Source: an uncultured Chloroflexia bacterium (lineage in GTDB: Bacteria > Chloroflexota > Limnocylindria > Limnocylindrales > CSP1-4). Taken from it: a stretch of 64,000 nt of DNA. Under the pieces are notes generated by a model that did no database searches, had not been told where the DNA came from, and saw only the letters and a list, made by a program, of their open reading frames with translations. The stretch spans positions 55,059 through 119,058 of the forward strand of contig CAVQSY010000003.1 in the NCBI GenBank assembly GCA_963716025.1. The letters run 5' to 3'. Shown piece after piece: positions 10,218-64,000 of this stretch. The translations under genes were made by a program, and so were the position numbers. Numbering within the stretch: the stretch's first letter is position 1; the number at the start of each line of letters is the position of its first letter.

Positions 10218-10263
10218 CGGGGCGCCTCCGCGGCGAGGTGGGGGTCAGCCGTCACCGCACGGG

Positions 10264-35758: not shown

Positions 35759-36040
35759 GATCGAATACCTCGGCTGGGACGCGAGCATGCACGCCCGCGG
35801 GTGGCTCTGACCGGCCGCGCGTGACGGGTCCCAAGGGGACCCGGGAGTCGGCTTCCGCAGTCAAGGTTGCGATTCGGTTGCCGATCATGATACCGGGGTG
35901 CGCAACCTGCGGGGCACGGGCGTTCCGGCGGCAGGACGGTGATCCATCCGCAGGTCGAGGGTGCGCACACCACGCAGGGCGAGGAGGCGGGCGAAGAAGC
36001 CGGGCACGACGCCCATCGCGTTCCTGGGGCAGCGCAGGAT

Positions 36041-38029: not shown

Positions 38030-38175
38030 GTCCGCAGGCTGGCGGCCCGTGCTCGCGCCGTCATCGTCAACCTGCGCCACGCAGGCGGACGGAGCCCTTG
38101 CATCCGGAGTGACGAGGCGCCAGCATGCGCCCACGCGCAGACCCTTGGGAGCGCGGGCGGATCGAGAGGCAGGAC

Positions 38176-44100: not shown

Positions 44101-44126
44101 GGGTCCCGTCGGCTATCCTCCGCCCG

Positions 44127-49037: not shown

Positions 49038-49179
49038 GACACGGCCCTGCCATGCGGGGCTGGGCCGCGGCGCGCGAGCAGCGCACGCGTCCGCCCGCGA
49101 GCGGGTAGCCTGACGCCCGCGCCCCGGCCCGCCGACGTTCGCGTTGCGCGCACCCGAACCCGGGGCGGAGGAGGAGCCC

Positions 49180-51795
49180 GTGGGTCGCGTGCTGCGTGGC
49201 GCGCTCGTGCTGGTCGTGATCGTGGTCGTGGCCAGCGTCGTGGCCGGCGGGGGGCTGATCGCGGCGATCACCGCCTCGGGCCAGCCGCAGCTTTCGGGCA
49301 CGGTCGTGATCCCGGGTCTCGACGAAGCGGTCGAGGTGAGCCGGGACGCCAGCGGGGTGACCCACATCACCGCGGGGACCGAGCACGACCTGTTCCTGGC
49401 CCAGGGGTGGATCCACGCGTCGGAGCGCCTGTGGCAGATGGAGATCTACCGCCGGATCGGCGCGGGGCGGCTCTCCGAGCTGTTCGGCGAGAGCCAGGTG
49501 GCCACCGACTCGTTCATCCGGACCGTCAACTGGCGGGGCGCCGCCCAGCGCGACCTTGGCGCCCTGTCCGCCGCGTCGCGGGCATTGCTGCAGGCGTACA
49601 GCGATGGCATCAACGCCTACATGGACGGTCACCCGTCCGCGCTCGGAACGTCGTTCGTGGTCGCGGGCCTCCTGGGCGGCGAGGGCGAACCGCTGGGCGG
49701 GCTACGCCCGGAACCGTGGGCGCCCCTCGACACGCTGACCTTCGCCAAGCTCCAGGCATGGAGCCTGGGCGGGAACGTCGACACCGAGATCTTCCGGATG
49801 CTGGCCGACGCGCAGCTTGGCGACCCCGCCCTCACGGACCAGCTGTTCCCGCCCTACGCCGCCGGCCAGCCGGTGATCGGCGCGCCGGAGGACGCTGCGG
49901 GTGGGGCGTTCCTGGCACCCGCGCCGACGAGCCGGGCTGCGGCGCTGACGGCGCCCGTCGGCCCCGATGCCCAGGCCTGGACCGAGCTCGGGCGGCTGAT
50001 GGGAGGCATCGGGGTGCTGGCGGGCCTGACGCCGGAGACCAACCTCGTCGGCACCGGCGGCGTGGGCTCCAACAACTGGGTGGTCGGGCCGTCGCACACG
50101 GCGTCCGGCAGCGCGATGCTCGCCAACGATCCGCACCTCGCCTTCAGCATGCCCTCGATCTGGTACGTCAATGGGCTCCACTGCCGGCCCGTCTCCGCGG
50201 CCTGCGCGTTCGACGTGGCCGGCGTCACCTTCCCCGGCACGCCCGGCGTGATCCTCGGCCACAACCAGCGCATCGCGTGGGGCGTGACCAACGTGAACCC
50301 GGACGTCCAGGATCTCGTGGAGGAGCGGGTCGACCCGGCGGACCCGACCCGCTACCTGACCCCAGGCGGCTCCGAGCCGTTCACGCTCCGGACCGAGACG
50401 ATCCGGGTTGCCGGCGGTGACGACGTGACGCTGACGGTTCGCGAGACGCGGCACGGTCCGGTCATCACGGACGTGGACGATCGCCTGAAGACGTCCGGCA
50501 GCCCGTACGTCCTTCGCTGGACCGCCCTGTCGGAGCCCGACCGGATCCTCGAGGCCTTCCTGGACATCGATCGCGCGACCGACTGGACCTCGTTCCGGGA
50601 GGCGCTCCGCAAGTACGGGGCCCCGTCCCAGAACTTCGTGTACGCCGATGTCGACGGGCACATCGGCTACCAGATGCCAAGCACGATCCCCGTTCGCACG
50701 CTTCCCGGTGACACCGGTGCCCGGCCGGTTCCCGGCTGGGACGGCCGGCACGAGTGGGTGTCGTTCGTGCCGTTCGATGACCTGCCCAGCGTGTTCGATC
50801 CCCCGTCTGGCCGCATCGCCACGGCCAACAACCAGGTGTGGTCCGACGGCCCCTTCCTCGGTGACGAGTGGGACCGAGGCGACCGCGCGGCCCGGATCCT
50901 GGAATTGATCGACGCCGCGGGCGACGAGGTCACGCTGGACACGCTCGCAGCCATCCAGGGCGACACGCTGCTCCGGCGCGCCGCACGCCTCACGAGCGCC
51001 GTTCGCGGCCTGGGCCCGACCCCCGCGACCGCCGACGGGCAGACCGTGTACGACGAGATCCTGGCATGGGACGGCCGCTGCGACGTCGACTCGACCGGTT
51101 GCTCGGCATACCTCGTGTTCGAGCTCGCGCTCGTCCGCGGCTTGTTCGATGACGAGCTGGGTCCGCTCGCACGCGACTTCGTCGGGTCCGACACCGCGCA
51201 CGACCTCGCGGCGAGCCTCGTGGGAACCCCTGAGGGTCGCGCGTCGGCCTGGTGGGGCGATGCCAGGACGGGCCGGGAGGGCGACCCGGAGCCGGTGGTC
51301 GCCGCGGCCCTCGATGCGGCCGGCTCGTGGCTGCGCCGCGACCTGGGCAGCCCGCGGCGATGGACGTGGGGCCGCATGCACACCGTGACGTTCCAGGAGT
51401 CGACCCTGGGGACCAGCGGGATCGGCCCCCTGGAGTGGTACTTCAACAGCCCCTCGTACCCGGTGGCGGGCGCGGACGGTGCCGTCGACAACACCTACTA
51501 CCGGCTGTGGCGTGCCTACCCCGATCCGTACGACCCCGACTACGAGCCGGCCGACACGCTGCCGGAGCTGTTCTCGGTGACCAACGGGCCGTCGATGCGG
51601 GCGCTCTACGACCTTGGCGACCTCGATGGCGGGCGCATCGTGACGACCACCGGTCAGAGCGGTCACCCGTTCAGCCGTCACGGGACGGACTTCATCGGGC
51701 CGTGGCTTGCCAATCAGACCGTGCCGCTGCCATTCAGCGCGGACGCGATCAGCGCGGCGTCGGTGGCGAAGTTGGAGCTGACCCCCGCCCATTGA
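49180..51795 (+). CDS. penicillin acylase family (Ntn hydrolase, peptidase S45) protein
   Basis: GGAGGAGGAG then GTG at 49180. Signal anchor VGRVLRGALVLVVIVVVASVVAGGG. QGWIHASERLWQMEIYRR. Beta-subunit nucleophile context GGVGSNNWVVGPSHTASGSAMLANDPHL. Confidence 0.85.
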   Translation: MGRVLRGALVLVVIVVVASVVAGGGLIAAITASGQPQLSGTVVIPGLDEAVEVSRDASGVTHITAGTEHDLFLAQGWIHASERLWQMEIYRRIGAGRLSELFGESQVATDSFIRTVNWRGAAQRDLGALSAASRALLQAYSDGINAYMDGHPSALGTSFVVAGLLGGEGEPLGGLRPEPWAPLDTLTFAKLQAWSLGGNVDTEIFRMLADAQLGDPALTDQLFPPYAAGQPVIGAPEDAAGGAFLAPAPTSRAAALTAPVGPDAQAWTELGRLMGGIGVLAGLTPETNLVGTGGVGSNNWVVGPSHTASGSAMLANDPHLAFSMPSIWYVNGLHCRPVSAACAFDVAGVTFPGTPGVILGHNQRIAWGVTNVNPDVQDLVEERVDPADPTRYLTPGGSEPFTLRTETIRVAGGDDVTLTVRETRHGPVITDVDDRLKTSGSPYVLRWTALSEPDRILEAFLDIDRATDWTSFREALRKYGAPSQNFVYADVDGHIGYQMPSTIPVRTLPGDTGARPVPGWDGRHEWVSFVPFDDLPSVFDPPSGRIATANNQVWSDGPFLGDEWDRGDRAARILELIDAAGDEVTLDTLAAIQGDTLLRRAARLTSAVRGLGPTPATADGQTVYDEILAWDGRCDVDSTGCSAYLVFELALVRGLFDDELGPLARDFVGSDTAHDLAASLVGTPEGRASAWWGDARTGREGDPEPVVAAALDAAGSWLRRDLGSPRRWTWGRMHTVTFQESTLGTSGIGPLEWYFNSPSYPVAGADGAVDNTYYRLWRAYPDPYDPDYEPADTLPELFSVTNGPSMRALYDLGDLDGGRIVTTTGQSGHPFSRHGTDFIGPWLANQTVPLPFSADAISAASVAKLELTPAH

Positions 51796-51825
51796 CGGCC
51801 GGGGGCCGCCGGTACCATCGCCACC

Positions 51826-52791
51826 ATGGCCTCGAACCGCGCGCCGCTGACCGGGACGCTCGCCGCCGTGGTGGCGGCCTCGCTGTTCGGGATGCTGGGG
51901 CCGCTGGCCCGGTTCGGCGCCGATGCCGGCGTCGGAGGGGTCGCGTTCACGGCGTGGCGCGCCCTGCTCGGCGTCGCGTTCCTGGGCCTCCTGATCGCCT
52001 CGCGGGGTGCCGCCCGCTCGTCGCTTGCCGCCGTGCGCGGACTGCCCGGCCGGGGACGGGCATCCCTCGGGATCGCCGCGCTCATGGGCGTGACCCTCAA
52101 CGTGTCCATCTTCAGCGCTTTCGGCCTGGTGCCGATCGCGCTCGCATTGATGCTGTTCTACCTCTACCCCGCGGGCGTGGTCGTCGTGGACCTGGTGCTG
52201 GGCCGGGAGCGCCTGTCCGCGTCCCGGCTGGCCGCCCTGCTGCTCTCGTTCGGCGGCGTCGTGCTCGTGCTCGCGGGCGGCATGGAGGATGCATCCGGCG
52301 CACCGCTCAGCCTGCTGGGGATCGCGCTCGGGCTTGCGGCCGCGGCCAGCCAGGTCGTGTTCATGACCGTCAGCCGCGGTGGGTACTCAAGCGTGCCGGC
52401 GGATGCGGCAACGCTCGTGATCCTCTCCACGTCCGTCGTGGGTGCGGCATTGATCGCGATCCTGGCCGGGCAGGGACCCGACCTGCTGGTGCCGCTGGGG
52501 GACCCGGGTTCCTGGCCGGTGATCCTCGTCGCGGGCGTGGCCGCCGCCGGCGTCTCGTCGCTCCTGTTCCTGACCGCGATCCGAGGCATCGGCGCGACCC
52601 GCACGGGGATCCTGATGCTCCTGGAGCCGGTGGTCGGGGTGCTGCTCGCGGCCCTGTTGCTCGGAGAGTCGCTGGCGCCGATCCAGGTCGTCGGCGGCGC
52701 GCTGGTCCTCGTCGGCGCGCTCGTGCTCCAGGTCCGGTCGGCGCCCGAGCTGGAGCCGATCGCCGAGACCGACGCGGGGCCAGTCGTCTGA
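51826..52791 (+). CDS. EamA/DMT-family transporter
   Basis: Ten predicted TM helices and a duplicated EamA-like architecture (...FTAWRALLGVAFLGLLIA... / ...SSLLFLTAIRGIGATRTGILMLLEPVVGVLLAALLLGE). Confidence 0.8.
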   Translation: MASNRAPLTGTLAAVVAASLFGMLGPLARFGADAGVGGVAFTAWRALLGVAFLGLLIASRGAARSSLAAVRGLPGRGRASLGIAALMGVTLNVSIFSAFGLVPIALALMLFYLYPAGVVVVDLVLGRERLSASRLAALLLSFGGVVLVLAGGMEDASGAPLSLLGIALGLAAAASQVVFMTVSRGGYSSVPADAATLVILSTSVVGAALIAILAGQGPDLLVPLGDPGSWPVILVAGVAAAGVSSLLFLTAIRGIGATRTGILMLLEPVVGVLLAALLLGESLAPIQVVGGALVLVGALVLQVRSAPELEPIAETDAGPVV

Positions 52792-52885
52792 CGTGGGTCC
52801 AAACGCCTGACCAGGCGCTCGGCGGGCGCGCGGCGGTTCGGTGGCTCGGCGGGCGCGCGGCGGGCGCGCGGCGGCTCGGCTGGCG

Positions 52886-52917
52886 ACCGAACGGTGCGTT
52901 CCCGTTCGGTTCTGTTC
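52886..52917 (+). terminator. intrinsic terminator after the EamA gene
   Basis: ACCGAACGG-TGCGTTC-CCGTTCGGT followed by TCTGTTC. Confidence 0.55.
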
Positions 52918-53010
52918 GCCCAGCGATCGGAATGCGGGTGGTTGACCCCACGAGCCCGCCGGTTCCACTCGCAGGGCGAGCGCCCCCGGCGGTGACCGCA
53001 CGGTTCAGCC

Positions 53011-53198
53011 GCCGGGCGAGCGGGCACCGGGCGCCGGGATCGGCGGGGCGAGCGGGCACCGGGCGCCGGGATCGGCGGGGCGAGCGGGCACCGGGCGCCG
53101 GGATCGGCGGGGCGAGCGGGCACCGGGCGCCGGGATCGGCGGGGCGAGCGGGCGAGCGGGCACCGGGCGCCGGGATCGGCCGGGCGAGCGGGCCCGGG
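53011..53198. repeat. tandem repeat, 32-bp unit CGAGCGGGCACCGGGCGCCGGGATCGGCGGGG x5 plus a partial unit (one 8-bp internal duplication)
   Basis: Unit starts at 53017, 53049, 53081, 53113 and 53153 (after the CGAGCGGG duplication at 53145). There are no spacers. The period is not a multiple of 3. Confidence 0.95.
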
Positions 53199-53213
53199 AC
53201 CCCGCAGATGGAC

Positions 53214-53600
53214 CTACGCCTCCTCGTGGAGCTCCAGCGGCCCCTCGTCGACCTCGATCACCACGCGGCCATCCTCGACCCGGACCTCGTAGGCCGCGAG
53301 CGGGAGCTCCGCCGGCGGATCGAGCGGCTCGCCATCGGTCAGGTCGAAGCGCGACAGGTGCAGGGCGCAGGTCAGGGTGCCCGCGGTCAGGAACCCACGG
53401 TCGAGCTCGAAGTACTCGTGCGAGCAGGTCCCCTGCAGCGCGTGGAACTCGCCGTTGACATGGATCACGAGCACCGGGTCGGACTGGTCCACCCAGACCA
53501 TCCGCATCTCCCCCTCCTCGAGCTCGTCGACTCCGAGGAGGTCGATGACCCGGCTCAGGCCGCCGTCGCGGAACCGGCCGCCGCGAGCCCGGCGGCCCAC
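53214..53600 (-). CDS. Rieske [2Fe-2S] domain protein of the suf operon
   Basis: ...DELEEGEMRMVWVDQSDPVLVIHVNGEFHALQGTCSHEYFELDRGFLTAGTLTCALHLSRFDLTDGEPL (CxH ... CxxH). Overlaps the sufD 3' end. Confidence 0.8.
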   Translation of the reverse strand: MGRRARGGRFRDGGLSRVIDLLGVDELEEGEMRMVWVDQSDPVLVIHVNGEFHALQGTCSHEYFELDRGFLTAGTLTCALHLSRFDLTDGEPLDPPAELPLAAYEVRVEDGRVVIEVDEGPLELHEEA

Positions 53601-54961
53601 TTGGCCTCCAGGGCATCGCGCAGGCGGTCCTGCGCCTCCTCGAGGGGAACCCGGGCCACCACCGGCTCCAGGAATCCGAGGACGATGAACTTGCGGGCCT
53701 CGTCGGGGGCGATGCCCCGGCTCTCGAGGTAGAACAGCTGGCTCTCGTCGATGGGACCGACGGACGAGCTGTGCGCCGCGCGCCGGCAGTCCGGCTGGTC
53801 GATCTCGAGCGACGGGATGGCCACCGCGCGCGCCGCCTTCGAGAGGTTCATGCCGAACTCTCCGAGGAAGCTGTCGGTGCCCACCGCGGTCTTCTCGATC
53901 ACGATCAGACCCTTCATGTAGCTGCGGGCCTTGTCGAACAGCACGCCCTTCGAGAGCAGCTGGCCGGTGGTGTCGCGCCCGACGTGGCGGGTATACGAGG
54001 TCAGGTCGTGCAGCTGGTCCTCGGCACCGAACACGATCTCGACCTGCTCGACGACGCTCCGATCGCCGGCGAGGACGTTGTCGACGCGAGAGCGGACGAG
54101 CCGGCCGCCCAGCTGGGCCAGGGCCCAGCGCAGGTCGGCGCCCTCCCCGATCTCGGCTCGGCGCTGCTGGAACACCACGTGGTCCGGGCCCAGCTCCTGG
54201 AGCGAGGCCATGGCGAGCCGGGCATGCGCACCGAGCCGGATCTCGGTGGTGGAGGAGAGCAGCGCCTGCGATCCGGCGACCGCCGCGTCACTCGCGACCA
54301 GCTCCTCCACGATCGTGGCCTCCGCGCCATCCTCGAGGACCAGGAACGTGCGCCCGATGAGGGTCCGCGGAGCGCCCAACGACCAGCGCACGACGATCGG
54401 GCGCTCGACCCGGACGCCGGCCGGCACGTGGACCACGACGCCGGTCGTCCAGGCCGCGCGGGACAGCTCGGCCAGCTTCTCGTCCCGGGGCAGGAGCGGC
54501 GCACCCTCGAGGAGCGATCGCGCCAGCGCCTCGTCGGACGCCACGAGCTCGGGCAGGGTCAGCAGGCGCACGCCGTCGGCCGCGGCCCGGGCGTCCAGGG
54601 AGCGCGCGATGGCGCCCTCCTCGCCCATCTCGATCAGCCCGGCGACGTCGTCTCCGGGCGTGCCCTCCGCTCCCTTTCCGGCCGGCGACGTGAACGGCAG
54701 CGCCCCGTCGAGCGACGCGGCGCGCAGGTCCAGGTACGGCGTGTACAACCGGTTGCTCTCCACCGGGAGCGCCTCGAACGCCGCCAGGGCGGCGAGGCGG
54801 TCCTCACGCAGCCAGGCTGGCTCGGCGGCCGCCTCCGAGATCGCGTCGACCAGGGCCCGGTCAACAAAGCTGAACGGCAGGTCCGCGGGCGCCCGGCGCG
54901 GGGCGTGTACCGGGCGCGCGGGGCTCGTCGGAAGCGACGAGGGTTCGGCGACCTCCGTCAT
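53555..54961 (-). CDS. sufD: Fe-S cluster assembly protein SufD
   Basis: Intact 468 aa. ATGA overlap with the sufB stop. C-terminal blocks [25 protein letters not shown]...[37 protein letters not shown]. Confidence 0.85.
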
Positions 54962-56362
54962 CCGAGCGACCCCTCCATCTCCAGCTTGACCAGGCGGTTG
55001 AACTCGATCGCGTACTCCATCGGGAGCTCCTTGGTGAACACCTCGAGGAAGCCCTGGATGACCAGGTTCTGCGCCTCGTTCTCGGTCAGCCCACGGCTCA
55101 TGAGGTAGAAGATCTGGTCGGCCGAGATCTTCCCCACCGTCGCCTCGTGGGTCATCGTGGTGTCGTCTTCCTGGATGTCGATGTACGGGTAGGTGTCGCT
55201 GCGGCTCTGATCATCGAGCATCAGGGCATCGCATCGCACGCTCGCCGTGACGCCCGTCGCCCCGGGCGCGATCCGCAGCTGGCCCCGATAGGTGGCGCGG
55301 CCGCCGTCCTTGGACACGGACTTGGACACGATCCGGGAGGTGGTGTTCGGGGCGAGGTGGATGGCCTTGGCGCCGGTGTCCTGGTGCTGCCCCTTGCCGG
55401 CAACCGCCACCGAGATGACCTCGGCCCGGGCGCCCTCGCCACGCAGGTAGATCGCGGGGTACTTCATCGTGAGACGGGAGCCGGTGTTCGCGTCCACCCA
55501 CTCGACGGTCGAGTTGGCGTGCGCGTGGGCCCGCTTGGTGACCAGGTTGTAGACGTCGTTCGACCAGTTCTGGATGGTGGTGTAGCGGACCTTGGAGCCC
55601 GGCAGCGCGACGACCTCGACGACGGCGGCATGCAGCGAGTCGGTCGCGTAGATCGGCGCCGTGCAGCCCTCGATGTAGTGGACCTTGGCACCCTCGTCGA
55701 CGACGATCAGCGTCCGCTCGAACTGGCCAGTGTTCTCGCCGTTGATGCGGAAGTAGGCCTGGAGCGGGAGCGGGACCTCGACGCCCTTGGGCACGTACAC
55801 GAACGAGCCGCCGGACCAGACCGCGCGAGTTGAGCGCGGCGAACTTGTTGTCCTCGGGCGGGACCACCGTGCCGAAGTACTGCCGGAAGATCTCCGGGTG
55901 CTCCTTGAGCGCCTGGTCGGTGCCCATGAACACCACGCCGATCTTGGACAACTCCTCGCGCACGGAGTGGTAGACCACCTCGGAGTCGTACTGGGCGCCG
56001 ACGCCGGCGAGGAACTTGCGCTCGGCCTCGGGGATGCCCAGCTTCTCGAACGTCGCCTTGATCTGCTCCGGGACGTCGTCCCAGGACTTCTCCTCGCGCT
56101 CGGACGGCTTGCGGTAGTAGACGATCTTGTCGAAGTCGATGGCATCGAGCGCGCCGCCCCACTTGGGCATGGGGCGCTTGAGGAAGTGGTCGTACGCGCG
56201 CAACCGGAACTGGAGCATCCACTCCGGCTCCTCCTTGAACCGGGAGATCTCCTCCACCGTGTCGCGGGTGAGGCCGCGCTTGGTCTCGCGCAGGTACACG
56301 ATGTCATCGTGGAACGCGAACTGGTCGCGCTCGTCCTTGACGAGGTCACGGGTCGAGGTCAT
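54958..56362 (-). pseudogene. sufB: Fe-S cluster assembly protein SufB with one +1 frameshift near 55825
   Basis: N-terminal part in ORF 55211..56521 ([20 protein letters not shown]...[13 protein letters not shown]). C-terminal part in ORF 54958..56349 ([28 protein letters not shown]...[10 protein letters not shown]). An extra base lies within CGCGCG at 55822-55827. Confidence 0.9.
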
Positions 56363-56557
56363 CGCAGCTCCGTTCGCGGCCACAGGGCCGACGGCTGGGG
56401 TCCGGTTGAGTGGTGGCGGGTCGAGAGGGAGCGCCGCGACCCCGGGGACGCGGGGCCGCAGGCTAATCCCTAGTGGAATTATCGGAATTACCGGCCGATC
56501 CGTCAACGACGACCCCGGCACGCGCCCCGTGCGAGCCCGATGGTCCGCCGATCCCGC

Positions 56558-57849
56558 CTAGAAGTGGGTCGTGCACCAGGGCGGATCGGCGGTCCGGAAC
56601 AGGCCGTCAGCGTCGCCAAGCGCACCCGGCCGATGCTCCTCGTACCCGGTGCTCAGGGCGACGTGCGCAAGGCGCGTGCCGCCGAGGTAGGCTCCAGACA
56701 GCGCCGCGACCGGAACCGTGAGGTCCGGTGGACGGTCCGTCGGGCGGCACGATGCGCCCTCTGGCCCGACCTCGAGCAGGAGACGCGACGTCCCGCCCCA
56801 CATCGGATCGTCGATCACCTCGATGACCACGCGCCCGGTTCGCGCATAGGCCCGTGCCTCCAGGGCACGCGGCACGTCGAACAGCCGGACCCAGAGCCGT
56901 CGACCCAGTCCGTGACCCGGGCTGCCCGGGCATTCGTGAGCAGCCATGGGAACCGCTCGGATTCGCGGCGGTCGGGCAGCCTGACGGTCGCCAGCAGGTC
57001 GAGGTCGAGCACGAACCGGAGCAGGTCGTCCTCTGCGGTGTCGGTGAGGGCGTGGAGCTCGTTGACCTCCACCACGCCCATCGGCAAGCCCTGCTGCCAC
57101 TTCGGGTCCGCCTTCCAGCGGACGTACCCGTCGACCGCGCCCGACGGGGCGCGGTGGAGCGCGACAAACCCGTTCCAGCGCTCGCCCCAGGGCTCGTCAC
57201 GCAGGCCGAACGCCCGGTCCCAGGTGGAGTCGCGGCGCCGGATCTCGCCGGGCTGGCGGAGCCGCCACGCGTCGAAGACGGCGGCGCTGGCATCGCGGCT
57301 GGCCGGTGCCGCCGGGACGAGCTCGACGGCGCCGCCGAGCTCGCCGTGGGAGCCTTCTGGCTCGCCGTGGGAGCCGTCTGGCTCGCCCGCGGAACCGCCG
57401 GGCTCGCCACGGAGCCGGGTCGCGCGGGCGTCGATCGTGTACTCCACCTGACGCGTCGCCGGCGCGTAGCCGAGCCGTCCGTAGATGCCGTACTCGGCCG
57501 CGTAGAGCAGCGCCACGGGCTCCCCGCGCTCACGCAGGGCCGCGTGCTCGCGGGCCGCGAGGGCCGTCATGATCCCGCGTCGCCGGTGCGTCGGGAGCAC
57601 GGTGACGGCCGACACGGCCGATGCAGGCAGACGTCGCAGGCCGGGGGCCGTCACCTCCGTGGGAAAGGAGCGAAACGTCCCGACCACCCGGTCCCCGTCG
57701 AACGCGAGCCACACGCGGTCCGGGTCCCAGTTGGCCCGCATGCTCTCCGCCACGGCGCGGTTGTCGGGCCGCTCCATGAACGCGGTGGTGATGACGTCGA
57801 CGGCCGCCTCGTAGTCGTCCGGCGAGGCGTTCCGGATCTCGATCGCCAT
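56558..57849 (-). pseudogene. Eis-like GNAT acetyltransferase (GNAT plus SCP2-like C-terminus) with a 1-nt deletion near 56898
   Basis: MAIEIRNASPDDYEAAVDVITTAFM...VTVLPTHRRRGIMTALAAREHAALRERGEPVALLYAAEYGIYGRLGY (ORF 56815..58008). The frame then switches to LWVRLFDVPRALEARAY...GGTRLAHVALSTG (ORF 56558..57100). Confidence 0.75.
57340..57416. repeat. tandem repeat, 21-bp unit CTCGCCGTGGGAGCCTTCTGG, about 3.6 copies
   Basis: Units at 57340, 57361, 57382 and 57403 (partial). In frame in the Eis-like gene, giving GEPGGSAGEPDGSHGEPEGSHGE. Confidence 0.85.
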
Positions 57850-57920
57850 GCCATCGACTCTAGCACCGGGCGGGGTCGCGCTAGACTTGCCACGTTCGTG
57901 GACAGTGGAGGAATGAGCGC

Positions 57921-59138
57921 TTGACCAACGAGAGTCGGCAGTCCGACGACCTGCGGTTGCCGGACGGCCGGATCCTCGTGCACATCGGGCCGCACAAGAC
58001 CGGGACAACGTCGCTCCAGGCCGCCCTGTTCACCGCACGGCCGTCCCTCCGCGAGCAGGGCGTTCACCATGCCGGCTGGTCCCGGAACCCGGCCCCGCGC
58101 CATCCAGTCGGTGACCGGCCAGGTCTCCGCCTGGAGTGACACCCCTCCTCCCATCCGCGGCTGGCTGAACCTGGAAAGGACATCCACCGCGCGCAGCCCG
58201 ACCGCGTCATCCTGAGCAGCGAGTTCCTTGCCCACGCGCGGCCCGACGTGGTGCGCCGGGTCGTGGACGACCTGGGCCGGGACCGGGTCCACGTGGTGAC
58301 CACCCTGCGGCCGATCGCCAGGATCCTGCCCTCGATGTGGCAGCAGAGCATCAGGGCGGGACGGACCACAGCCTTCGACGCCTGGCTCCGTCGCCTGTTC
58401 GCGACGGACCAGCCGCCGGCGGGCTTCTGGACCCTCCAGGAGCACGATGCGCTGATCCGGCGATGGGCCGATGCGGTGGGCATCGACCGCGTCACGGCCG
58501 TCGTGCTCGATGAGGGCGATCGCGAGATGGTGATGCGCACGTTCGAGCGGATCCTCGGCCTGCGGCCAGGCACGCTGCAGTCCGTCTCCGGGCTCGCCAA
58601 CCGGTCGATCTCCGCGGAGGAGGCCGAGGCCATTCGGGCCTACAACATCGCGCACCGGCACGCCGGCCTGGGCAAGGCGATGCACGCCCTGGTCATGCGC
58701 TTCGGTGCGGCGCAGTACCTGTGCCGCCTGGATGCGTCCGAGGGCGGCACCACGATCCGGCTTCCGGGTTGGGTGCTCGATGACGTCGCCCGCAAGGCCG
58801 ACGCGATCGTATCGGGCATCCGGGCGTCCGGGGTGCGCGTGGTCGGAGACCTGGACCGGCTGCTCGAGGTGCCCGGGCCGCCGAGCCTGGAGGACGAGAC
58901 GCTCCCCGAGGACGTGCCGCCCGAGGTTGCCGCACGCATCGCCATGGGGATCCTGATCGCGAGCGGGCGGACGCGGCTCGACGGGGCGGTCGAAGACGAG
59001 GAGATCGCCGAGGTCGTGTCGGCGATTGCCTCACGGCAGCTCGCCGCCGCCGTGAGCCTGCGAACCCGCGCATCGCTGTGCCGAAAGCGAGATCGGGGCC
59101 TGCAGCTCCTGACGGGCGGGCTCGAGCGCGCCGGCCGG
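57921..59138 (+). pseudogene. paralog A of an uncharacterised sulfotransferase-like P-loop family (3' end approximate)
   Basis: GGAGGA then TTG at 57921. LPDGRILVHIGPHKTGTTSLQAALF...GVHHAG. The frame changes at about 58101 and returns at about 58179. Then VILSSEFLAHARPDVVRRVVDDLGRDRVHVVTTLRPIARILPSMWQQSIRAG...ANRSISAEEAEAIRAYN...SGVRVVGDLDRL...VAARIAMGILIASG. There is no stop before paralog B in this frame. Confidence 0.6.
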
Positions 59139-60475
59139 GTGATCCGGCCGCCCGCAGGACAGGATGCCTCGCCCGCGGCAACAGCACCGGCGGGAGCCGG
59201 TGCGGCGCACCACCCGGACGCGCTTCCGGCGGGCACGATCCTCGTCCACATCGGGCCGCCCAAGACCGGGACGACCGCGGTCCAGGCGGCGTTCGACGAG
59301 GCCCGTGCGCGGACCGCGGCGCAGGGCGTGCACTATGCGGGCCGGCGACGGCACTCGATCTCCGCGGTCCAGGCCGTGCTCCTCCGGCGCGGGATCAAGT
59401 CCGAGACCGTCCCGCCGATGGGTGCCCTGGAACCGGCTGCTCGAGCGAGATCCGCCACACCGCCGCGGGCCGGGTGGTCCTGAGCAGCGAGTTCTTCGCC
59501 GACGCGACGCCCGACGGATCCGGGCCGTGGTCGATGCGCTGGGGCCGGACCGCGTGCAGGTGTCGTGGTGACCCTGCGGCCGCTTGCGAGGGTCATCCCA
59601 AGTCAATGGCAGCAGTACGTCCAGAGCGGACTCAAGACGAGCTACGCCTCCTGGCTGGATGCCATGCTCAACCGGCCGCCCGGCAAGCTGTCGCCGTCCT
59701 TCTGGCATCGCCATCGCCACGACGAGCTGATCGCCCGCTGGGCTGCAGTGGTTGGCCCCGATCGAGTGACCGCCATCGTCGTCGACGAGGGTTCCCGCGA
59801 GTCGATCCTGCGCCAGTTCGAGCAGCTCGCCGGACTGGAGGAGGGCACCCTCCGCCTCCAGGAATTGCTCCAGAACCGGTCGCTGACGTTCGAGGAGGTT
59901 GAGGCCGTCCGCGCGCTGAACGTGGCCTTCGCCGCCGCCGGACTCCGGCGACCGCTGCATGCCGAGATCGTCAACTTCGGCGCGACGGAGCACCTCAAGA
60001 TCGTTCCGCCCGAGTCCGGGACGACACGCATGGAGCTGCCCGCGTGGGCGGCCGCACGGGTGAGCGAGATCTCGCAGGAGGTGGCGGCCGGCATCACCGC
60101 CTCGGGGGTGCGGGTGATCGGGGACCTGGACCACCTGCGTGAGGTCGTGGCCGGTGGGGGCACCGGACCCGGGCGGAGCCTGTTCGCATTCCAGTCTCGG
60201 TGGCGGCGCGCCTGATGCTGGGGGTCCTGCTCGCGACCGGCCTCGTTCCCGACGGGCTCAGGACCCTGGAGCGGATCGCGACACCGGCGCCCGCGGCCGG
60301 GCGTGGAGGCCGGGGCGGCCGCAGGGATCGCGTCCCGACACCGCGCACGATCGGTCCCCGGATGGCCGAGCCGATCGAGATCGCTCGCGTCCCCACCCGG
60401 CGCCTCGTCGGCATCCTCGCCAGGCGGGGCCGCACGCGCTCGCTGACCGCCCGACTTCGGAAGCATGGCGCCTGA
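59139..60475 (+). pseudogene. paralog B of the same family (5' end approximate; at least five frame changes)
   Basis: LPAGTILVHIGPPKTGTTAVQAAFDEARARTAAQGVHYAG | AWNRLLERD | GRVVLSSEFFADATPDG | IRAVVDALGPDRVQV | VTLRPLARVIPSQWQQYVQSG...QNRSLTFEEVEAVRALN...SGVRVIGDLDHL | VAARLMLGVLLATG...LTARLRKHGA. The pieces come from ORFs 58248.., 59164.., 59078.., 59565.. and 60200.. Confidence 0.6.
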
Positions 60476-61681
60476 CGCCCTGCCCCCGGTCACGGTCGGC
60501 GCGAGCGCGCCGCCGCGCATCGAGCCTTTCCCGGTCGGGACCCGCCTCCTGCACATCGGGCCTCCCAAGACGGGAACGACGTCCCTCCAAGCCGCGTTCT
60601 GGGCCGCCCGCGAAGACGCCCTTTCGCAGGGCGTGCGCGACGCAGGCTCGAGCCGCCATCCTCGAGGGCGGTCCTCGCGGTCACCGTACGGATGTCCTTC
60701 GCCGAGGACCGGGCGACCCCGGACATCGGGCACTGGGAGCGCCTGCTCGCCGAGATCCGTGGGCGCCCGAGCCTCGTGTCGTCCTCAGCAGCGAGGGCTT
60801 CTCGTACGCGAGCGAAGCGGCGCGGGACCGCGTCATCACGGACCTCGATCCCGGTCGCGTCCACGTGGTCGTGACGCTGCGGCCGATCCGAAGGCTGCTG
60901 GCATCGGAATGGCAGGAGCACACGCAGAGCGGCCTGCGAGTGCCGTTCGACGACTGGCTCGACCAGCTGTTCAATCGGCCCGACACGAGGATCGCGCGGG
61001 CATTCTGGTGGCGGCAGCGCCACGACCGACTGGTCGAGCGGTGGGGATCCCCGGTCGGGATGGACCGGGTGACCGCGGTGGTGGCCGACGTCGCCTACCC
61101 CGAGCGCCTGTACTGGGTGTTCGGCGTCCACCGGGCTGCGGCAGGGGACGCTCGTCCCCGACCCCAGCCTCGCGAACCGGTCGCTCACGCTCGAGGAGAT
61201 CGTCGCGATCCGCGCCCTCGCGGAGCGGTTCGACGCCGAAGGCTTGAGCATGGCCGCCTTCCACCGGGTGGCCCGCATGAAGATTGCCGCCTACATGAAG
61301 CGGCGCCAGCCGGCCGTCGGCGAGGCGCGGATCGAGACGCCGCAATGGGCGCTCGACCGTGCCGGGGAGGTCGCCCGGGAGGTCGTGGCCGGCGTTGCCG
61401 CGTCCGGGGCCCGCGTCGTCGGCGATCTCGAGCTCCTGAAATCGCAGCCCGGGAGCGGCAGCCACGGCGAGCGGCTGCCGGAGGTGCCCGTCTCGCCCGA
61501 GGTCGCCGCCTGGGATGGCCATGGGCGCGGTGATGGTGGCTTACCTGGCGGAGCCCGGCGGACGCAGGCGGGCCGGAGCGTCGGTGGACCTGGCCTCGGT
61601 GCCGACGCCTTGCCTCGCCCGGACCCTCGCGGGAAGGGCGAGGCGCTTCGTCACCCGGCGCCTCGGACGCGGCCGGCCTGA
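60465..61681 (+). pseudogene. paralog C of the same family (at least four frame changes; 3' end approximate)
   Basis: The ATG at 60465 overlaps the paralog B stop (60473-60475). PVGTRLLHIGPPKTGTTSLQAAFWAAREDALSQGVR | MSFAEDRATPDIGHWERLLAEIRG | VVLSSEGFSYASEAARDRVITDLDPGRVHVVVTLRPIRRLLASEWQEHTQSG | ANRSLTLEEIVAIRAL(hand-read)...SGARVVGDLELL | MAMGAVMVAYL. Confidence 0.6.
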
Positions 61682-61693
61682 CCGTCACGACGC

Positions 61694-63066
61694 TCAGGCG
61701 CCCAGCCGGTCGACCGGCCTCCGGATGCGGGCGACGGCCACCTCGACCGTCGTGATGGTCGTGTCCACCACGACGTCCGCGTCGTCTGGCGCCTCGCAGG
61801 CCTACGAGATGCCGGTGAAGTCCGCGACCTCGCCGGCCCGGCCCTCGCGTAGAGGCCCTTCCGGTCGCGGGCCTCGCACACCTCGAGCGGGGTGCTCACC
61901 CAGACCAGCAGGAACGCGCCATTCGCCTCGGCCATGGCCCGCACCCGGGCCCGCGAGGACGCGAACGGGGCGATGGGTGCCGCGACGGCAATCCCGCCGT
62001 GGCGGCGAGCTGCGCAGCCACCCAGCCGATGCGTTCCACGTTGCGCTCCCGGGACGCCCCGTCGAAGCCCAGCTCCGCCGAGAAGTGCTGGCGGATCTCG
62101 TCGCCATCGAGGAGTGTCACGGGACGGGCACCCCCATCGAGCAGGTCCTCGACCAGGGCCCGGGCGATCGCGGACTTTCCCGAACCGGACAGGCCGCTGA
62201 ACAGCACGACGGCCCCGCCTGGCGGGGTCCCCGATCGAGCGCGCAGGATCTCGGCGGCCGACGCCTCCGGGGAGATGGCCCGCACCGCCCGCCCCCAGGC
62301 GCCCGCGAGCGACGAGATCGGTCGAGCTCCTCGGCGGTTCGCAGCGCGGACAGGGCAATGGTGCGCGTCGCTCCGTATGCCTCGAGGACCTCGGGGAGGG
62401 ATGGTGACCGCCAGCCGGCCGGCACCGGACCGGAGGGGGAAAAAACGGGGTCACCACGGGGACGACCGGCGTCCCGTGTATCTGCTCACCGAGGGCCTGG
62501 GCCGCCGCCACCGCGGCCCGGGTCAGGCCGGCCCAACTCACCGACCCCGCGGGCCGGTGCCGTCGCGCCACCGGGATCGCCAGCAGGACGGCCCCCGGCC
62601 GGGCTCCCTCGAGGATGCCGGCCGCCCGGTCGAGATCGGCCAGCGTGGGCACGTCGTCGACGACGAGCGCCGTGATCGGCTCCGCCGAGGCCACCGTCCC
62701 GATTCGGGCCTGGACGGCGGCGACCGACAACCGCAGCGCCGGATCCCAGTGCGGCCCTCCATGGGGAGCGAACGGACGTACTGGCTCGAGGATCCTCCTG
62801 CCGGCGACCGTCGACAGGCGGGCCAGGCGCGCGTTCTCCGCGTCGGTGAGCACGACGCCGTCCTCACCCGGATCGATCCCGGCCGGGGGCGTCGGGTGCC
62901 GGCACCGCGCCACCGAGGGCGAGCTCGAGGAGATCCAGGCCCACGTCGTCGAGGACGATCTTCTACTGCGGCCTCCTCGGGGGACGCTTCGGACAGGCGC
63001 GCCCTTGCCTCGGCCCGGCGGCCTTCGCTGCTCCTGTCGCCCGGGCGCGAGATGCCCGGGCCCCAT
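61694..63066 (-). pseudogene. cysC: adenylyl-sulfate (APS) kinase fused to an N-terminal degenerate ATP-sulfurylase-like domain; multiple frameshifts plus an in-frame TAG
   Basis: The APS kinase core is clear. GGAVVLFSGLSGSGKSAIARALVEDLLDGGARPVTLLDGDEIRQHFSAELGFDGASRERNVERIGWVAAQLA (ORF 61896..62285). GGIAVAAPIAPFASSRARVRAMAEANGAFLLVWVSTPLEVCEARDRKGLYARA (ORF 61651..63066). RAGEVADFTGIS-TAG-ACEAPDDADVVVDT (TAG at 61802-61804). The N-terminal roughly 260 aa (LDDVGLDLLELALGGA, GVVLTDAENARLARLS, AVLLAIPVARR) resemble Sat, but I cannot find the catalytic motifs. The start is uncertain. Confidence 0.7.
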
Positions 63067-63084
63067 TGCGGATCAGGATCGAGA

Positions 63085-63943
63085 TCAGGCTGCCGAGCCC
63101 GACGGTGCAGCCACGGCGGCCAGCAGGACGATCTCATTGCTGAACCCCAGCAGCTTGAGCGACGACGAGAGCAGCAGCACCGCGAGCACGCGCCGGATGA
63201 TGCCGCCGGGGGCGCGGGTGGAGACCTGGGCCCCGAACCAGGCGCCGGGGATCGCCCCGAACAGCAGCGAGAACGCGACGGCGAACGAGAAGCTGCCGAA
63301 CAGCATGTGGCCGGCAGCTGCCGAGCCCACCAGCGGGATCGCCTGGACGAGGTCGGTACCGACCAGCGCCGACGCCTGCAGGGCGGGGTGCATCATCAGC
63401 AGCCCGACCACGATGATCGATCCCGCGCCGACCGAGGTCAGGCCCACCATGAACCCGGCAACCGCCCCCAGGAGGACGGTCCGGATCGGCTTGAGGACCA
63501 CGGCCGGCTTCTTGGGCACGCCCGCGATGCCCTCGCCCAGGGGCAAGCCGCCGGCTCCACATCTGGATCAGCGCGCGGCTGATCAACCCGATGGTCGCCA
63601 GCATCAGGGCGAGCCCGCAGCCACGCTTGAGCCACAGATCGAGGTCGACGTCGGGGGGCACCTGGCTGATCAGCCAGGCCCCGGAGAACGCTGCCGGCAC
63701 GGAGCCCACGCACAGCCAGGCCACCAGCTTGAGGTTGACCGTTCCATGCCGGAGGCGGGCCCATGCCCCCACCGGCTTCATGAACAGGTTCACCACGATG
63801 TCGCTCGAGATCGCCGTCAGCGGGTCAACGCCGAACAGGAACACGAGCATTGGCGTCATCAGCGCCCCGCCACCCATCCCCGTGAGGCCGACGTCGGTGC
63901 CCACCAGGAGCCCCCCGATGGCCAGCGGCAGATCGAACGTCAT
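63085..63943 (-). pseudogene. TauE/SafE (DUF81) family anion exporter with one frameshift near 63540
   Basis: MTFDLPLAIGGLLVGTDVGLTGMGGGALMTPMLVFLFGVDPLTAISSDIV (ORF 63134..63985) joins ...AVAGFMVGLTSVGAGSIIVVGLLMMHP...FGAIPGAWFGAQVSTRAPGGIIRRVLAVLLL (ORF 63085..63546). Confidence 0.75.
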
Positions 63944-64000
63944 GGGCGCGCGACCGCGCTGCCGGGCGTGGAGGGTGCAGGACATGCGCGGATGATAACT

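What the first reader, a model, noticed from the sequence alone, without database searches (positions are those of the whole stretch)
57921..63943. Candidate undescribed sulfation module: three tandem paralogs with a sulfotransferase-like P-loop, convergent with a Sat-like/CysC fusion and a TauE/SafE exporter
Three consecutive + strand genes of about 390-410 aa each are clear paralogs. All three share an N-terminal (I/L)L(V/L)HIGP(H/P)KTGTT(S/A)(L/V)QAA(L/F) loop. They also share V(I/V)LSSE(F/G)F, V(V/T)TLRP(I/L)xR(I/V/L)(L/I)(P/A)S(M/Q/E)WQ(Q/E)xxx(A/S)G, NRS(I/L)(S/T)xEE(A/V/I)xAIRA(Y/L), SG(V/A)RV(V/I)GDL(D/E)xL, and a hydrophobic tail VAA(R/W)(I/L/M)(A/M)(M/L)G. The B stop overlaps the C start (60465/60475), which indicates an operon. 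I cannot place this family by name. The PKTGTT loop resembles the 5'-phosphosulfate-binding loop of PAPS-dependent sulfotransferases. The only neighbours on the other strand are an APS kinase (the PAPS-forming step) fused to a Sat-like domain, and a TauE/SafE sulfite/sulfo-anion exporter. The simplest reading is a dedicated PAPS supply plus three specialised sulfotransferases acting on an unknown acceptor (cell-envelope glycolipid, polysaccharide or small molecule). No acceptor-biosynthesis genes are present in the window.
Basis: partly seen in the sequence, partly recalled or inferred. Interest (0 to 1): 0.8.

Follow-up and report, generated by a model that had tools for sequence, protein, structure and literature searches.

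The report
Uncharacterised sulfotransferase-like paralogs beside PAPS genes
Three tandem copies of an unnamed protein domain have the fold and cofactor-binding motifs of sulfate-transferring enzymes and sit, here and in dozens of related soil Chloroflexota genomes, beside the genes that make the activated sulfate donor, so they probably sulfate an unknown cell component.

Summary
There are three paralogous ~400-aa units (41-44% identical), encoded by two genes, not three. A and B form one continuous ~849-aa reading frame. C is a separate gene whose start overlaps the B stop. In this window the units are broken by about 12 one- or two-base indels. A 98%-identical relative (L034) reads A-B as one intact ORF and most of C intact, so these look like assembly errors.

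No Pfam or NCBIfam model reaches threshold. There are recurrent sub-threshold Sulfotransfer_4 hits, and no PDB sequence match. An AlphaFold model of an intact homolog (pLDDT 87) matches solved PAPS-dependent sulfotransferases best. All three units keep the Lys-containing 5'-PSB loop, a strand-end Glu, and a 3'-PB-type R-x7-S motif.

In 44 of 57 Chloroflexota-type loci the paralogs sit next to APS kinase and, in most, TauE, a CysQ-like gene, CysD and CysN. In 18 Actinomycetota loci they do not. The kinase's N-terminal domain has an ATP-sulfurylase fold but lacks Pfam-detectable sulfurylase sequence.

Best reading: a divergent, uncharacterised sulfotransferase family fed by an adjacent PAPS pathway, with the acceptor unknown. 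UniProt already auto-labels some homologs "Sulfotransferase family protein". Interest is moderate.

The parts
57921..59135 (+). Sulfotransferase-like domain A, the N-terminal half of the fused A-B gene. TTG start at 57921 as in L034. Two compensating 1-base indels near 58093 and 58174.
   Evidence: Keeps K (HIGPHKTGTT), SSEF, TLRPIARILPS and NRS.
59136..59186 (+). Linker between domains A and B (Pro/Ala/Gly-rich). There is no stop codon, so A and B are one reading frame.
   Evidence: frame 3 open. (849-aa ORF in L034). (P0004 reads through the junction). Fused two-domain ORFs also occur in L019 and L026.
59187..60475 (+). Sulfotransferase-like domain B, the C-terminal half of the fused gene. 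Stop at 60473-60475. Five frame-shifting indels relative to L034 (about 59425, 59445, 59514, 59561, 60170) and one 3-base in-frame insertion at 60439.
60465..61681 (+). Gene C, the third sulfotransferase-like paralog (~405 aa). Its ATG overlaps the A-B stop. Frameshifted relative to L034 at about 60658, 60760, 61122 and 61669, with a further frame switch near 61511 seen only in the frameshift-aware alignment. Repaired C-terminus reads ...RRFVTRRLGRRPA*.
   Evidence: It is the ortholog of the APS-kinase-proximal copy in relatives (tree).
61694..63066 (-). APS kinase (CysC domain) with an N-terminal domain of ~290 aa that has an ATP-sulfurylase-like fold. Convergent with gene C across a 12-nt gap. 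At least four frameshifts in this window.
   Evidence: coordinates. Pfam APS_kinase 1.6e-53 and NCBIfam apsK above cutoff for the L004 ortholog. Best PDB sequence hit is 3cr8. The full-length fold matches 1m8p, 1i2d, 3cr8 and 2gks.
63085..63943 (-). TauE/SafE-family (TSUP) membrane transporter, upstream of and co-directional with the APS kinase. One frameshift in this window.
   Evidence: Pfam TauE 3.7e-43 for the L004 ortholog.
56561..57849 (-). Eis-like GNAT acetyltransferase, the divergent upstream neighbour. It recurs in about half of the related loci. No functional link to the paralogs is shown.

Best explanation
The locus encodes three copies of a divergent, uncharacterised PAPS-dependent sulfotransferase domain. 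A and B are fused in one ~849-aa protein, and C is a translationally coupled ~405-aa protein.

Proposed mechanism for each domain (inferred by analogy):
- It binds 3'-phosphoadenosine-5'-phosphosulfate through an N-terminal strand-loop-helix, HIGPxKTGTT. The Lys would act as the 5'-phosphosulfate-binding and catalytic residue.
- A strand-then-helix motif, TLRPxxRxxxS, would bind the 3'-phosphate through its Arg and Ser, which are 8 residues apart.
- The invariant Glu at the end of the SSE(F/G)F strand is the most likely catalytic base.

Proposed donor supply (shown by synteny, function inferred):
- The adjacent convergent operon encodes a TauE-family transporter and an APS kinase.
- In relatives, and presumably just beyond the window end, a divergent CysQ-like gene, CysD and CysN follow.
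- Together these would cover sulfate entry, APS synthesis, PAPS synthesis and PAP removal.

Other points:
- Three anciently diverged, catalytically intact-looking domains suggest either several sulfation positions on one acceptor or several related acceptors.
- There is no signal peptide. The conserved, borderline-hydrophobic C-terminal helix and basic tail suggest a cytoplasmic, membrane-peripheral enzyme acting on an envelope lipid or lipid-linked glycan. This last step is speculation.
- The frameshifts in this window are most likely assembly errors.
For: Fold and motifs:
- AF2 model of homolog P0006 with a 42-sequence alignment: pLDDT 87.2, pTM 0.80.
- Foldseek against the PDB: the top three hits and most of the top 20 are sulfotransferases (3rnl E 1.7e-5; 3uan, 6xl8, 1vkj, 1zrh; SULT1E1, SULT7A1, SULT1C2). 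Target-normalised TM reaches 0.59.
- Invariant residues in 42 homologs include K30, T31, G32, T33, T34, S104, S105, E106, R135, S143, N234, R235 and S236. Their secondary-structure placement is strand 22-26, loop, helix 33-42; strand 100-105 then E106; strand 128-134 then R135; S143 in helix 137-150.
- The R-to-S spacing of 8 equals that of the published 3'PB motif RDPRxxxxSR (PMC7353957).
- All three window domains keep these residues.
- Sub-threshold Sulfotransfer_4 matches recur in 4 of 42 and 5 of 10 members. They start at the N-terminal end of the profile and reach profile positions 25-115.

Context:
- 44 of 57 Chloroflexota-type loci have APS kinase immediately downstream of the paralog array. 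Most of these also have TauE, a CysQ-like gene, CysD and CysN (gene and Pfam tables).
- CysD, CysN and APS kinase pass NCBIfam curated cutoffs.
- Upstream neighbours vary between loci while this link persists.

Assembly errors:
- In L034, which is 98.2% identical, A-B is one intact ORF and C is intact except near its C-terminus.
- Indel noise is patchy elsewhere in the window and also hits sufB.
Against: - No curated sequence model recognises the family. Pfam and NCBIfam give nothing at threshold.
- A profile search of PDB sequences finds nothing.
- hhalign against an HS3ST1 profile is not significant (probability 0.4%).
- Foldseek E-values are modest apart from the top hit. P-loop kinases and GTPases also appear with target-normalised TM of 0.3-0.5, as expected because the folds are related.
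- I could not inspect model coordinates, so I could not confirm that K30, R135 and S143 line one pocket.
- Linkage to cys genes is absent in all 18 Actinomycetota loci. The Chloroflexota loci are related lineages, so their synteny is not fully independent evidence.
- The cys cluster could be the housekeeping sulfate-assimilation set.
- No acceptor pathway was found in the window or in relatives.
Confidence: 0.75

Rival explanations
1. The paralogs are ATP- or NTP-dependent P-loop kinases or NTPases rather than sulfotransferases, and their position next to the cys genes is incidental.
For: Foldseek also returns PSTK, adenylate kinase, Kti12, FtsY/FlhF and APS kinase, with probabilities of 0.6-0.98. 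No sulfotransferase HMM reaches threshold.
Against: The loop is GPxKTGTT, not Walker A GxxxxGK[ST]. Sulfotransferases fill the top ranks with the highest TM scores. An R-x7-S 3'PB-type motif is invariant. Sulfotransfer_4 is the only family hit more than twice among the 42 aligned members, and it is also hit in 5 of 10 further members, always below threshold. Linkage to the PAPS-making and PAP-removing genes is conserved.
Confidence: 0.07
2. The module is genuinely decaying in this organism: the frameshifts are real mutations, and A-B, C, the APS kinase and TauE are pseudogenes.
For: There are at least 12 indels in 3.8 kb of A-B-C, and more in the APS kinase and TauE. Many long ORFs elsewhere in the window are intact. 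The phase-switch count is raised in 56-64 kb.
Against: The essential sufB gene and the Eis-like gene are also frameshifted. Similar noise occurs at 1-4 kb and 8-12 kb. The closest relative is a metagenome-assembled genome and carries its own frameshifts in the APS kinase and in C's C-terminus. Several of the indels fall beside short G or C runs. Substitutions against L034 number only 43 in 3.86 kb, with 15 alignment gaps (three of them at or next to the ends of the aligned stretch), a ratio typical of sequencing error rather than of evolution.
Confidence: 0.1
3. The neighbouring cys genes are simply the housekeeping sulfate-assimilation cluster. The paralogs are sulfotransferases or something else that stay adjacent through inherited synteny in one lineage, not because the PAPS supply is dedicated to them.
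For: All linked loci are Chloroflexota-type (mostly Limnocylindria-like) MAGs. All 18 Actinomycetota loci are unlinked. Some Chloroflexota genomes carry extra unlinked copies, for example L042 and L055. CysDN also serves assimilation.
Against: The link persists while the paralogs diverge to about 45% identity, the copy number varies from 1 to 5, and the upstream neighbours change. No sulfate-reduction genes (CysH, sulfite reductase) were called in the three loci that have gene and Pfam tables, whereas APS kinase and a PAP-phosphatase-like gene were.
Confidence: 0.15
4. One or more of the three domains is a non-catalytic PAPS/PAP-binding or scaffolding pseudo-enzyme, for example within the fused A-B protein.
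For: Tandem fusion of two homologous domains is recurrent. Domain C differs at 5 of the 54 invariant positions (Q147E, E243V, N249A, G269K, G356Y).
Against: All three domains keep the K, E, R, S and NRS residues that are candidates for catalysis and cofactor binding.
Confidence: 0.05

Closest known systems
Heparan-sulfate 3-O-sulfotransferases (HS3ST1/3; PDB 3uan, 1zrh, 6xl8) and the uncharacterised Alicyclobacillus sulfotransferase 3rnl
   Same: These are the best structural matches. They share the strand-loop-helix PSB loop with a Lys. They share a Glu just after a central strand: SSEF here, TVEKTP in HS3ST1 (HS3ST1 sequence from memory, confirmed at 99% identity to P0372). They share an R-x7-S 3'PB motif: LRPLARILPS here, LRDPSERVLS in HS3ST1.
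   Different: There is no significant sequence or profile similarity. The new family has an extra ~110-residue helical C-terminal region with a hydrophobic helix and a basic tail. It is cytoplasmic and bacterial, and it occurs in tandem arrays and fusions.
Pfam Sulfotransfer_4 (PF17784) and Sulfotransfer_1 (PF00685)
   Same: Sub-threshold matches recur. They start at the N-terminal end of each profile and reach profile positions 25-115 of Sulfotransfer_4 (E 0.003-0.09) and 4-144 of Sulfotransfer_1 (E 0.15).
   Different: All scores are below the gathering cutoffs (at most 18 bits against 22.8). The three window domains give no hit at all.
Mycobacterial sulfation system (CysDNC, CysQ, Stf0-Stf3 sulfotransferases making sulfolipids; review PMC3141025, listed but not read here)
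   Same: The logic is the same: CysDN plus APS kinase make PAPS, a CysQ-type phosphatase removes PAP, and cytoplasmic sulfotransferases modify envelope glycolipids (established knowledge).
   Different: Here the sulfotransferase genes are physically clustered with the PAPS genes. The kinase is fused to an ATP-sulfurylase-like domain, not to CysN. The Stf0 structure is not among the top 50 fold matches. The acceptor is unknown.
Thiobacillus denitrificans hexameric APS kinase with an ATP-sulfurylase-like N-terminal domain (PDB 3cr8)
   Same: It is the best PDB sequence match for the kinase domain (E 4.7e-57). The full-length fold match includes the N-terminal domain (E 6e-23, about 518 aligned columns).
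   Different: The N-terminal domain here is shorter (~290 aa) and has no detectable sequence similarity to any sulfurylase. Whether it is inactive, as I recall was reported for 3cr8, was not tested.
Tandem sulfotransferases of glycopeptide antibiotic clusters (Teg12/13/14, StaL)
   Same: Several paralogous sulfotransferases encoded side by side, each sulfating a different position of one scaffold (from memory). This is a precedent for the 'three specialised enzymes' idea.
   Different: As I recall, those are ~285-aa enzymes of a canonical, Pfam-recognised sulfotransferase family inside a biosynthetic gene cluster. Here there is no Pfam membership and no scaffold-biosynthesis genes nearby.

Membership tests
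PAPS-dependent sulfotransferase superfamily (fold level) | Overall alpha/beta fold similar to solved sulfotransferases | tested here: met
   Foldseek against the PDB: ranks 1-3 and most of the top 20 are sulfotransferases. Probability is 1.00 for the top three and for 1zrh, and 0.84-0.99 for the other sulfotransferases. Target-normalised TM 0.5-0.59, on a model with pLDDT 87.
PAPS-dependent sulfotransferase superfamily (fold level) | 5'-phosphosulfate-binding strand-loop-helix with a conserved Lys/Arg followed by G-(S/T)-(S/T) | tested here: met
   H25, G27, P28, K30, T31, G32, T33 and T34 are invariant in 42 homologs and lie between strand 22-26 and helix 33-42. The motif is present in A, B and C. 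The comparison motif is RxGSSF (PMC7353957).
PAPS-dependent sulfotransferase superfamily (fold level) | 3'-phosphate-binding motif: Arg at a strand end and Ser eight residues later in the following helix | tested here: met
   R135 and S143 are invariant. Strand 128-134 is followed by helix 137-150. The spacing equals that of RDPRxxxxSR. Kept in A, B and C.
PAPS-dependent sulfotransferase superfamily (fold level) | Catalytic base (His or Glu) positioned next to the acceptor hydroxyl or amine | tested here: inconclusive
   The invariant E106 after strand 100-105 (and H25) are candidates. Model coordinates could not be inspected.
PAPS-dependent sulfotransferase superfamily (fold level) | PAPS binding and sulfuryl transfer to an acceptor | not testable with these tools
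   Requires biochemistry.
Pfam Sulfotransfer_1/2/3/4/5 and NCBIfam sulfotransferase models (sequence-level membership) | Score at or above the curated gathering cutoff | tested here: not met
   Repaired A, B and C give no sulfotransferase hit at E<=1; B gives only three weak, unrelated Pfam hits. Homologs give only sub-threshold Sulfotransfer_4 and Sulfotransfer_1 hits.
Heparan-sulfate 3-O-sulfotransferase family | Significant profile-profile similarity | tested here: not met
   hhalign of A1 against A4 gives probability 0.4%, E 0.16.
P-loop NTPases / nucleotide kinases | Walker A motif GxxxxGK[ST] | tested here: not met
   The loop is G-P-x-K-T-G-T-T, with the Lys three positions before the final Thr pair. 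Kinases and GTPases rank below sulfotransferases in the fold search.
Mycobacterial Stf0-type sulfotransferases | Close structural or sequence similarity to Stf0 | tested here: inconclusive
   No Stf0 entry appears among the 50 fold matches shown. No direct comparison was run.
APS kinase (CysC) - neighbour gene | APS_kinase domain above curated cutoffs | tested here: met
   For the L004 ortholog, Pfam gives 1.6e-53 and NCBIfam TIGR00455 gives 168.5 bits against a cutoff of 138.7. The window copy aligns in pieces at 53-81% identity.
ATP sulfurylase (Sat) - N-terminal domain of the neighbour gene | ATP-sulfurylase fold | tested here: met
   The full-length AF2 model (pLDDT 87) aligns over 516-569 columns with the sulfurylase-kinase fusions 1m8p, 1i2d, 3cr8 and 2gks, E 6e-26 to 3e-21.
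ATP sulfurylase (Sat) - N-terminal domain of the neighbour gene | Sulfurylase sequence signature (Pfam ATP-sulfurylase/PUA_2; catalytic QxRNPxHxxH-type motif) | tested here: not met
   There is no Pfam hit N-terminal of residue 246, apart from one sub-threshold MeaB match from 274; the strongest hits (APS_kinase, AAA_33) start at 291. A profile of 22 N-domains finds no sulfurylase in the PDB. The consensus reads VVDDVPTRAD where, by my own reading from memory, the motif would lie.
TauE/SafE (TSUP) transporters - neighbour gene | Pfam TauE above cutoff | tested here: met
   148.3 bits against a cutoff of 32.6 for the L004 ortholog. The window copy is 65-72% identical in two frames.

The most novel reading that the evidence does not exclude
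This is the founding example of a new sulfotransferase family, with thousands of members in Chloroflexota and Actinomycetota and no curated model. In Limnocylindria-like bacteria it would form a self-contained sulfation island: a transporter, CysDN, an ATP-sulfurylase-like/APS kinase fusion, a CysQ-like phosphatase, and one to five sulfotransferase domains including fused di-domain enzymes. The island would build a multiply sulfated envelope lipid or glycan of a kind not yet known from this abundant, uncultured soil and freshwater lineage.
Probability: 0.3. Interest if true: 0.65.

Novelty: new variant of a known kind. Interest (0 to 1): 0.45.

Why it matters
- If the prediction holds, a large protein family now annotated almost everywhere as 'hypothetical protein' gains a function. 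It has no Pfam or NCBIfam model.
- It would point to sulfated metabolites or envelope components in Limnocylindria-type Chloroflexota, which are abundant in soils and lakes but uncultured, and in many Actinomycetota including Streptomyces.
- The cultivable actinomycete carriers make the prediction directly testable.
- The tight clustering with a complete PAPS supply and PAP recycling set gives a ready-made cassette for heterologous sulfation.
- The fused two-domain form and the ATP-sulfurylase-like domain on the kinase are further structural questions.
- For genome annotation, the case shows how indel-rich long-read MAGs can hide such genes.

Tried and rejected
- Pfam and NCBIfam scans of hand-repaired A, B and C gave nothing informative.
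- A profile HMM of 42 homologs against PDB sequences gave only a chance hit to Pho4.
- hhalign of the family profile against a vertebrate HS3ST1 profile was not significant. That profile has low diversity, which limits the test.
- A profile of the APS-kinase N-terminal domain against PDB sequences gave nothing. Only the fold search revealed the sulfurylase-like fold.
- An Rfam scan of the window, L004 and L034 for a riboswitch or other regulatory RNA found no match.
- A literature search for Limnocylindria plus sulfotransferase returned no papers. A general search found only the mycobacterial and engineering literature.
- The look-up of encoding contigs for P0004, to see the same species' flanks, found nothing on record.
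- I looked for acceptor-biosynthesis genes in the rest of the window. The 20 largest coding-like ORFs are housekeeping or miscellaneous: PHO4, GH15, GltX, AlkZ-like, MacB/FtsX, aminotransferase, amidohydrolase, Fe-ADH, two Lgt, MDH, PEPCK, a LuxR-type regulator, VIT1 and penicillin amidase. There were no glycosyltransferase, polyketide or lipid clusters.
- I considered and rejected the idea that the frameshifts mark specific pseudogenisation (see the rival explanations).
- I considered the Eis-like acetyltransferase as a functional partner. It is adjacent in only about half of the loci, and nothing links its chemistry to sulfation.

Full report
**What is in the sequence**

The window is about 72% G+C. 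A three-frame translation of 57850-61750 shows three tandem, clearly related protein units on the + strand. None can be read in a single frame.

I aligned each unit to an ortholog from a related genome with a frameshift-aware method. That places two frame changes in A, six in B and four in C. The neighbouring genes are broken in the same way: SufB, an Eis-like acetyltransferase, the APS kinase and TauE.

**The frameshifts are most likely assembly errors**

- Window 56513-64000 is 98.2% identical to locus L034, contig CAVOXZ010000012.1 of an 'uncultured Chloroflexia' MAG, MFD09964.bin.2.77.
- In L034 the A-B region is one intact 849-aa ORF. C is a separate ORF whose ATG overlaps the A-B stop.
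- A base-level alignment shows 43 substitutions and 15 alignment gaps in 3.86 kb. Twelve of the gaps are 1-2 base events inside the coding region, several beside short G or C runs.
- L034 has frameshifts of its own in the APS kinase and at the C-terminus of C.
- A codon-phase scan of the whole window shows that the noise is patchy. Phase switches number 10 per 4 kb in 56-64 kb, 15 in 1-4 kb and 10 in 8-12 kb, against 2-7 elsewhere.
- The essential sufB gene is hit as well.

I therefore treat the genes as functional in the organism. I give real pseudogenisation about 10%.

**Gene model**

No stop codon separates A from B in three places:
- the window;
- L034;
- protein P0004, which one search lists on a separate 18-kb contig and which reads from the tail of A through the whole of B.

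Fused two-domain ORFs also occur in L019 and L026. Among cluster representatives, six proteins of 759-853 aa carry two family matches: P0121-P0125 and P0210.

The locus is therefore two genes:
- A-B, 57921-60475;
- C, 60465-61681. The repaired C-terminus is ...RRFVTRRLGRRPA*.

C ends 12 nt from the stop of the convergent APS kinase gene (61694-63066, minus strand). That gene follows TauE (63085-63943, minus strand).

**The family**

- A search with repaired A found 731 relatives at E<=1e-3. Most of the 120 listed are about 400 aa, and none of them has a Pfam domain. Every source name given is 'hypothetical protein', and the few that name an organism are Chloroflexota or Candidatus Limnocylindria MAGs.
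- An exhaustive profile search found 10,940 cluster representatives at E<=1e-3 and 1,435 at E<=1e-30.
- A genome scan shows the family in Limnocylindria-type Chloroflexota. It also shows it in Actinomycetota: Streptomyces, Mumia, Actinopolymorpha and Nocardiopsis among others.
- NCBI calls the actinomycete proteins 'hypothetical protein'. UniRef labels three of them 'Sulfotransferase family protein', for example A0A852ZG15. So an automated sulfotransferase prediction already exists, but I found no characterisation.

**Tests of the sulfotransferase idea**

Sequence-level tests fail:
- The repaired A, B and C give no informative Pfam hit and no NCBIfam hit at E<=1; B gives only three weak, unrelated Pfam hits.
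- The family profile finds no PDB sequence.
- hhalign against a vertebrate HS3ST1 profile is not significant.
- The only signal is a recurrent sub-threshold match of the N-terminal region to Pfam Sulfotransfer_4. It occurs in 4 of 42 and 5 of 10 members, E 0.003-0.09. There is also one match to Sulfotransfer_1.

Structure-level tests succeed:
- AlphaFold2 on homolog P0006 with the 42-sequence alignment gives pLDDT 87.2 and pTM 0.80.
- Foldseek against the PDB ranks a bacterial sulfotransferase first (3rnl, E 1.7e-5).
- Heparan-sulfate 3-O-sulfotransferases come next (3uan, 6xl8, 1vkj, 1zrh; target-normalised TM 0.46-0.59), then cytosolic SULTs.
- P-loop kinases and SRP GTPases score lower.

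The invariant residues of the family fall where the sulfotransferase cofactor motifs lie:
- HIGPxKTGTT lies between strand 22-26 and helix 33-42. This matches the 5'-PSB loop. The Lys sits early in the loop, unlike Walker A.
- E106 directly follows strand 100-105. It is a candidate base, as Glu is in HS 3-OSTs.
- R135 lies at the end of strand 128-134, and S143 lies in the following helix. The spacing is the same as in the published 3'PB motif RDPRxxxxSR (PMC7353957).
- All three window domains keep these residues and the invariant NRS triplet.

**Context**

I used ortholog proteins from L004 as tblastn probes.
- 44 of 57 Chloroflexota-type loci carry the APS kinase immediately downstream of, and convergent with, the paralog array. 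Several of the other 13 are short contigs.
- Most of the 44 also carry TauE and then, on the other strand, a CysQ-like inositol-phosphatase-family gene, CysD and CysN.
- CysD, CysN and the kinase pass NCBIfam cutoffs. The phosphatase is closest to CysQ but scores below cutoff.
- This window ends at TauE, so the CysQ-like, CysD and CysN genes are expected just beyond base 64000.
- The array holds one to five copies. A neighbour-joining tree shows that C belongs to a clade containing the kinase-proximal copies of eight other loci, and A to a clade of distal copies. The duplications are therefore old.
- None of the 18 Actinomycetota loci has cys genes within 8 kb. There the neighbours include a LytR_cpsA_psr ligase or a PMT-family mannosyltransferase. 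This hints weakly at envelope glycopolymers.

**The neighbouring kinase**

- Its C-terminal half is a bona fide APS kinase.
- Its first ~290 residues match no Pfam family. A profile of them finds nothing in the PDB by sequence.
- An AlphaFold model of a full-length homolog (pLDDT 87) aligns over 516-569 columns with the ATP sulfurylase-APS kinase fusions 1m8p, 1i2d, 3cr8 and 2gks. E-values are 6e-26 to 3e-21, against about 1e-14 for kinase-only structures.
- The domain lacks recognisable sulfurylase sequence. It probably acts like the inactive domain of the Thiobacillus enzyme 3cr8 (from memory), with CysDN as the real sulfurylase.

**Mechanism proposed**

*Shown:*
- sulfotransferase-like fold and motifs;
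- translational coupling of A-B and C;
- conserved clustering with APS kinase, TauE, a CysQ-like gene and CysDN.

*Inferred:*
- a TauE-family permease brings in sulfate or handles a sulfo-anion;
- CysDN makes APS and the kinase makes PAPS;
- the three domains each transfer sulfate to a distinct position or acceptor;
- the CysQ-like enzyme removes the inhibitory PAP.

*Speculative:*
- The conserved C-terminal helix is the most hydrophobic segment in every domain, with a Kyte-Doolittle 19-residue mean of 1.4-1.9.
- Together with the basic tail it may hold the enzymes at the membrane, pointing to a lipid or lipid-linked glycan acceptor.
- No acceptor pathway was found in the window.

**Verdict**

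The locus is a divergent, uncharacterised branch of a known enzyme superfamily. It has some unusual features: no curated model, a C-terminal extension, tandem and fused domains, and tight clustering with a complete PAPS pathway. It is not a categorically new system. An automated 'sulfotransferase family' label already exists for some homologs. Interest is moderate, at 0.45.

Noticed in passing
window 1-64000 (notably 1-4000, 8000-12000, 56000-64000): Frameshift and indel noise is patchy. Codon-phase switches number 10-15 per 4 kb in these stretches and 2-7 elsewhere. Long ORFs such as 49114-51792 and 34157-35860 are intact. This suggests uneven polishing or coverage, or strain mixing, in a metagenome assembly.
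   Followed up: partly
window 51716-64000 against L034: Identity to the closest relative is mosaic. It is 98.2% over 56513-64000 (Eis-like gene through TauE), 93.9% over 53213-56522 (Rieske/SufD/SufB) and 81.7% over 51716-52792 (EamA). The cause could be recent exchange of the sulfation block between lineages, or a chimeric or strain-mixed assembly. The 98% block starts where the indel noise starts.
   Followed up: no
window 56561-57849 (-): An Eis-like GNAT acetyltransferase (Acetyltransf_9/17 plus SCP2_2) is the divergent upstream neighbour of the paralog array in about half of the Chloroflexota loci. No functional link is established.
   Followed up: partly
window 54958-56521 (-): sufB is split between two frames near 55.8 kb. 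It belongs to a Rieske-SufD-SufB block that is syntenic with relatives.
   Followed up: no
window 31489-32487 (-) and 43021-44112 (-): Two prolipoprotein diacylglyceryl transferase (Lgt) paralogs lie within 12 kb of each other.
   Followed up: no
window 36044-38353 (-) and 38113-40761 (+): A 770-aa coding-like ORF with no Pfam match overlaps the start of an 883-aa LuxR-type (AAA_16 plus GerE) regulator ORF. One of the two may be spurious or frameshifted.
   Followed up: no
L080 (Actinopolymorpha rutila) and L081/L063/L072 (Mumia): Actinomycetota homologs are not near cys genes. In Actinopolymorpha the gene lies between a LytR_cpsA_psr ligase and a 593-aa hexapeptide-repeat protein. In Mumia three tandem copies sit between a PMT/rsmI block and metG.
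   Followed up: partly
Proteins P0334, P0336, P0337, P0340, P0344: The ATP-sulfurylase-like N-domain fused to APS kinase is rare, with 54 hits. Outside Chloroflexota it occurs in Promicromonospora and Myceligenerans. JGI names these proteins 'sulfate adenylyltransferase'.
   Followed up: no
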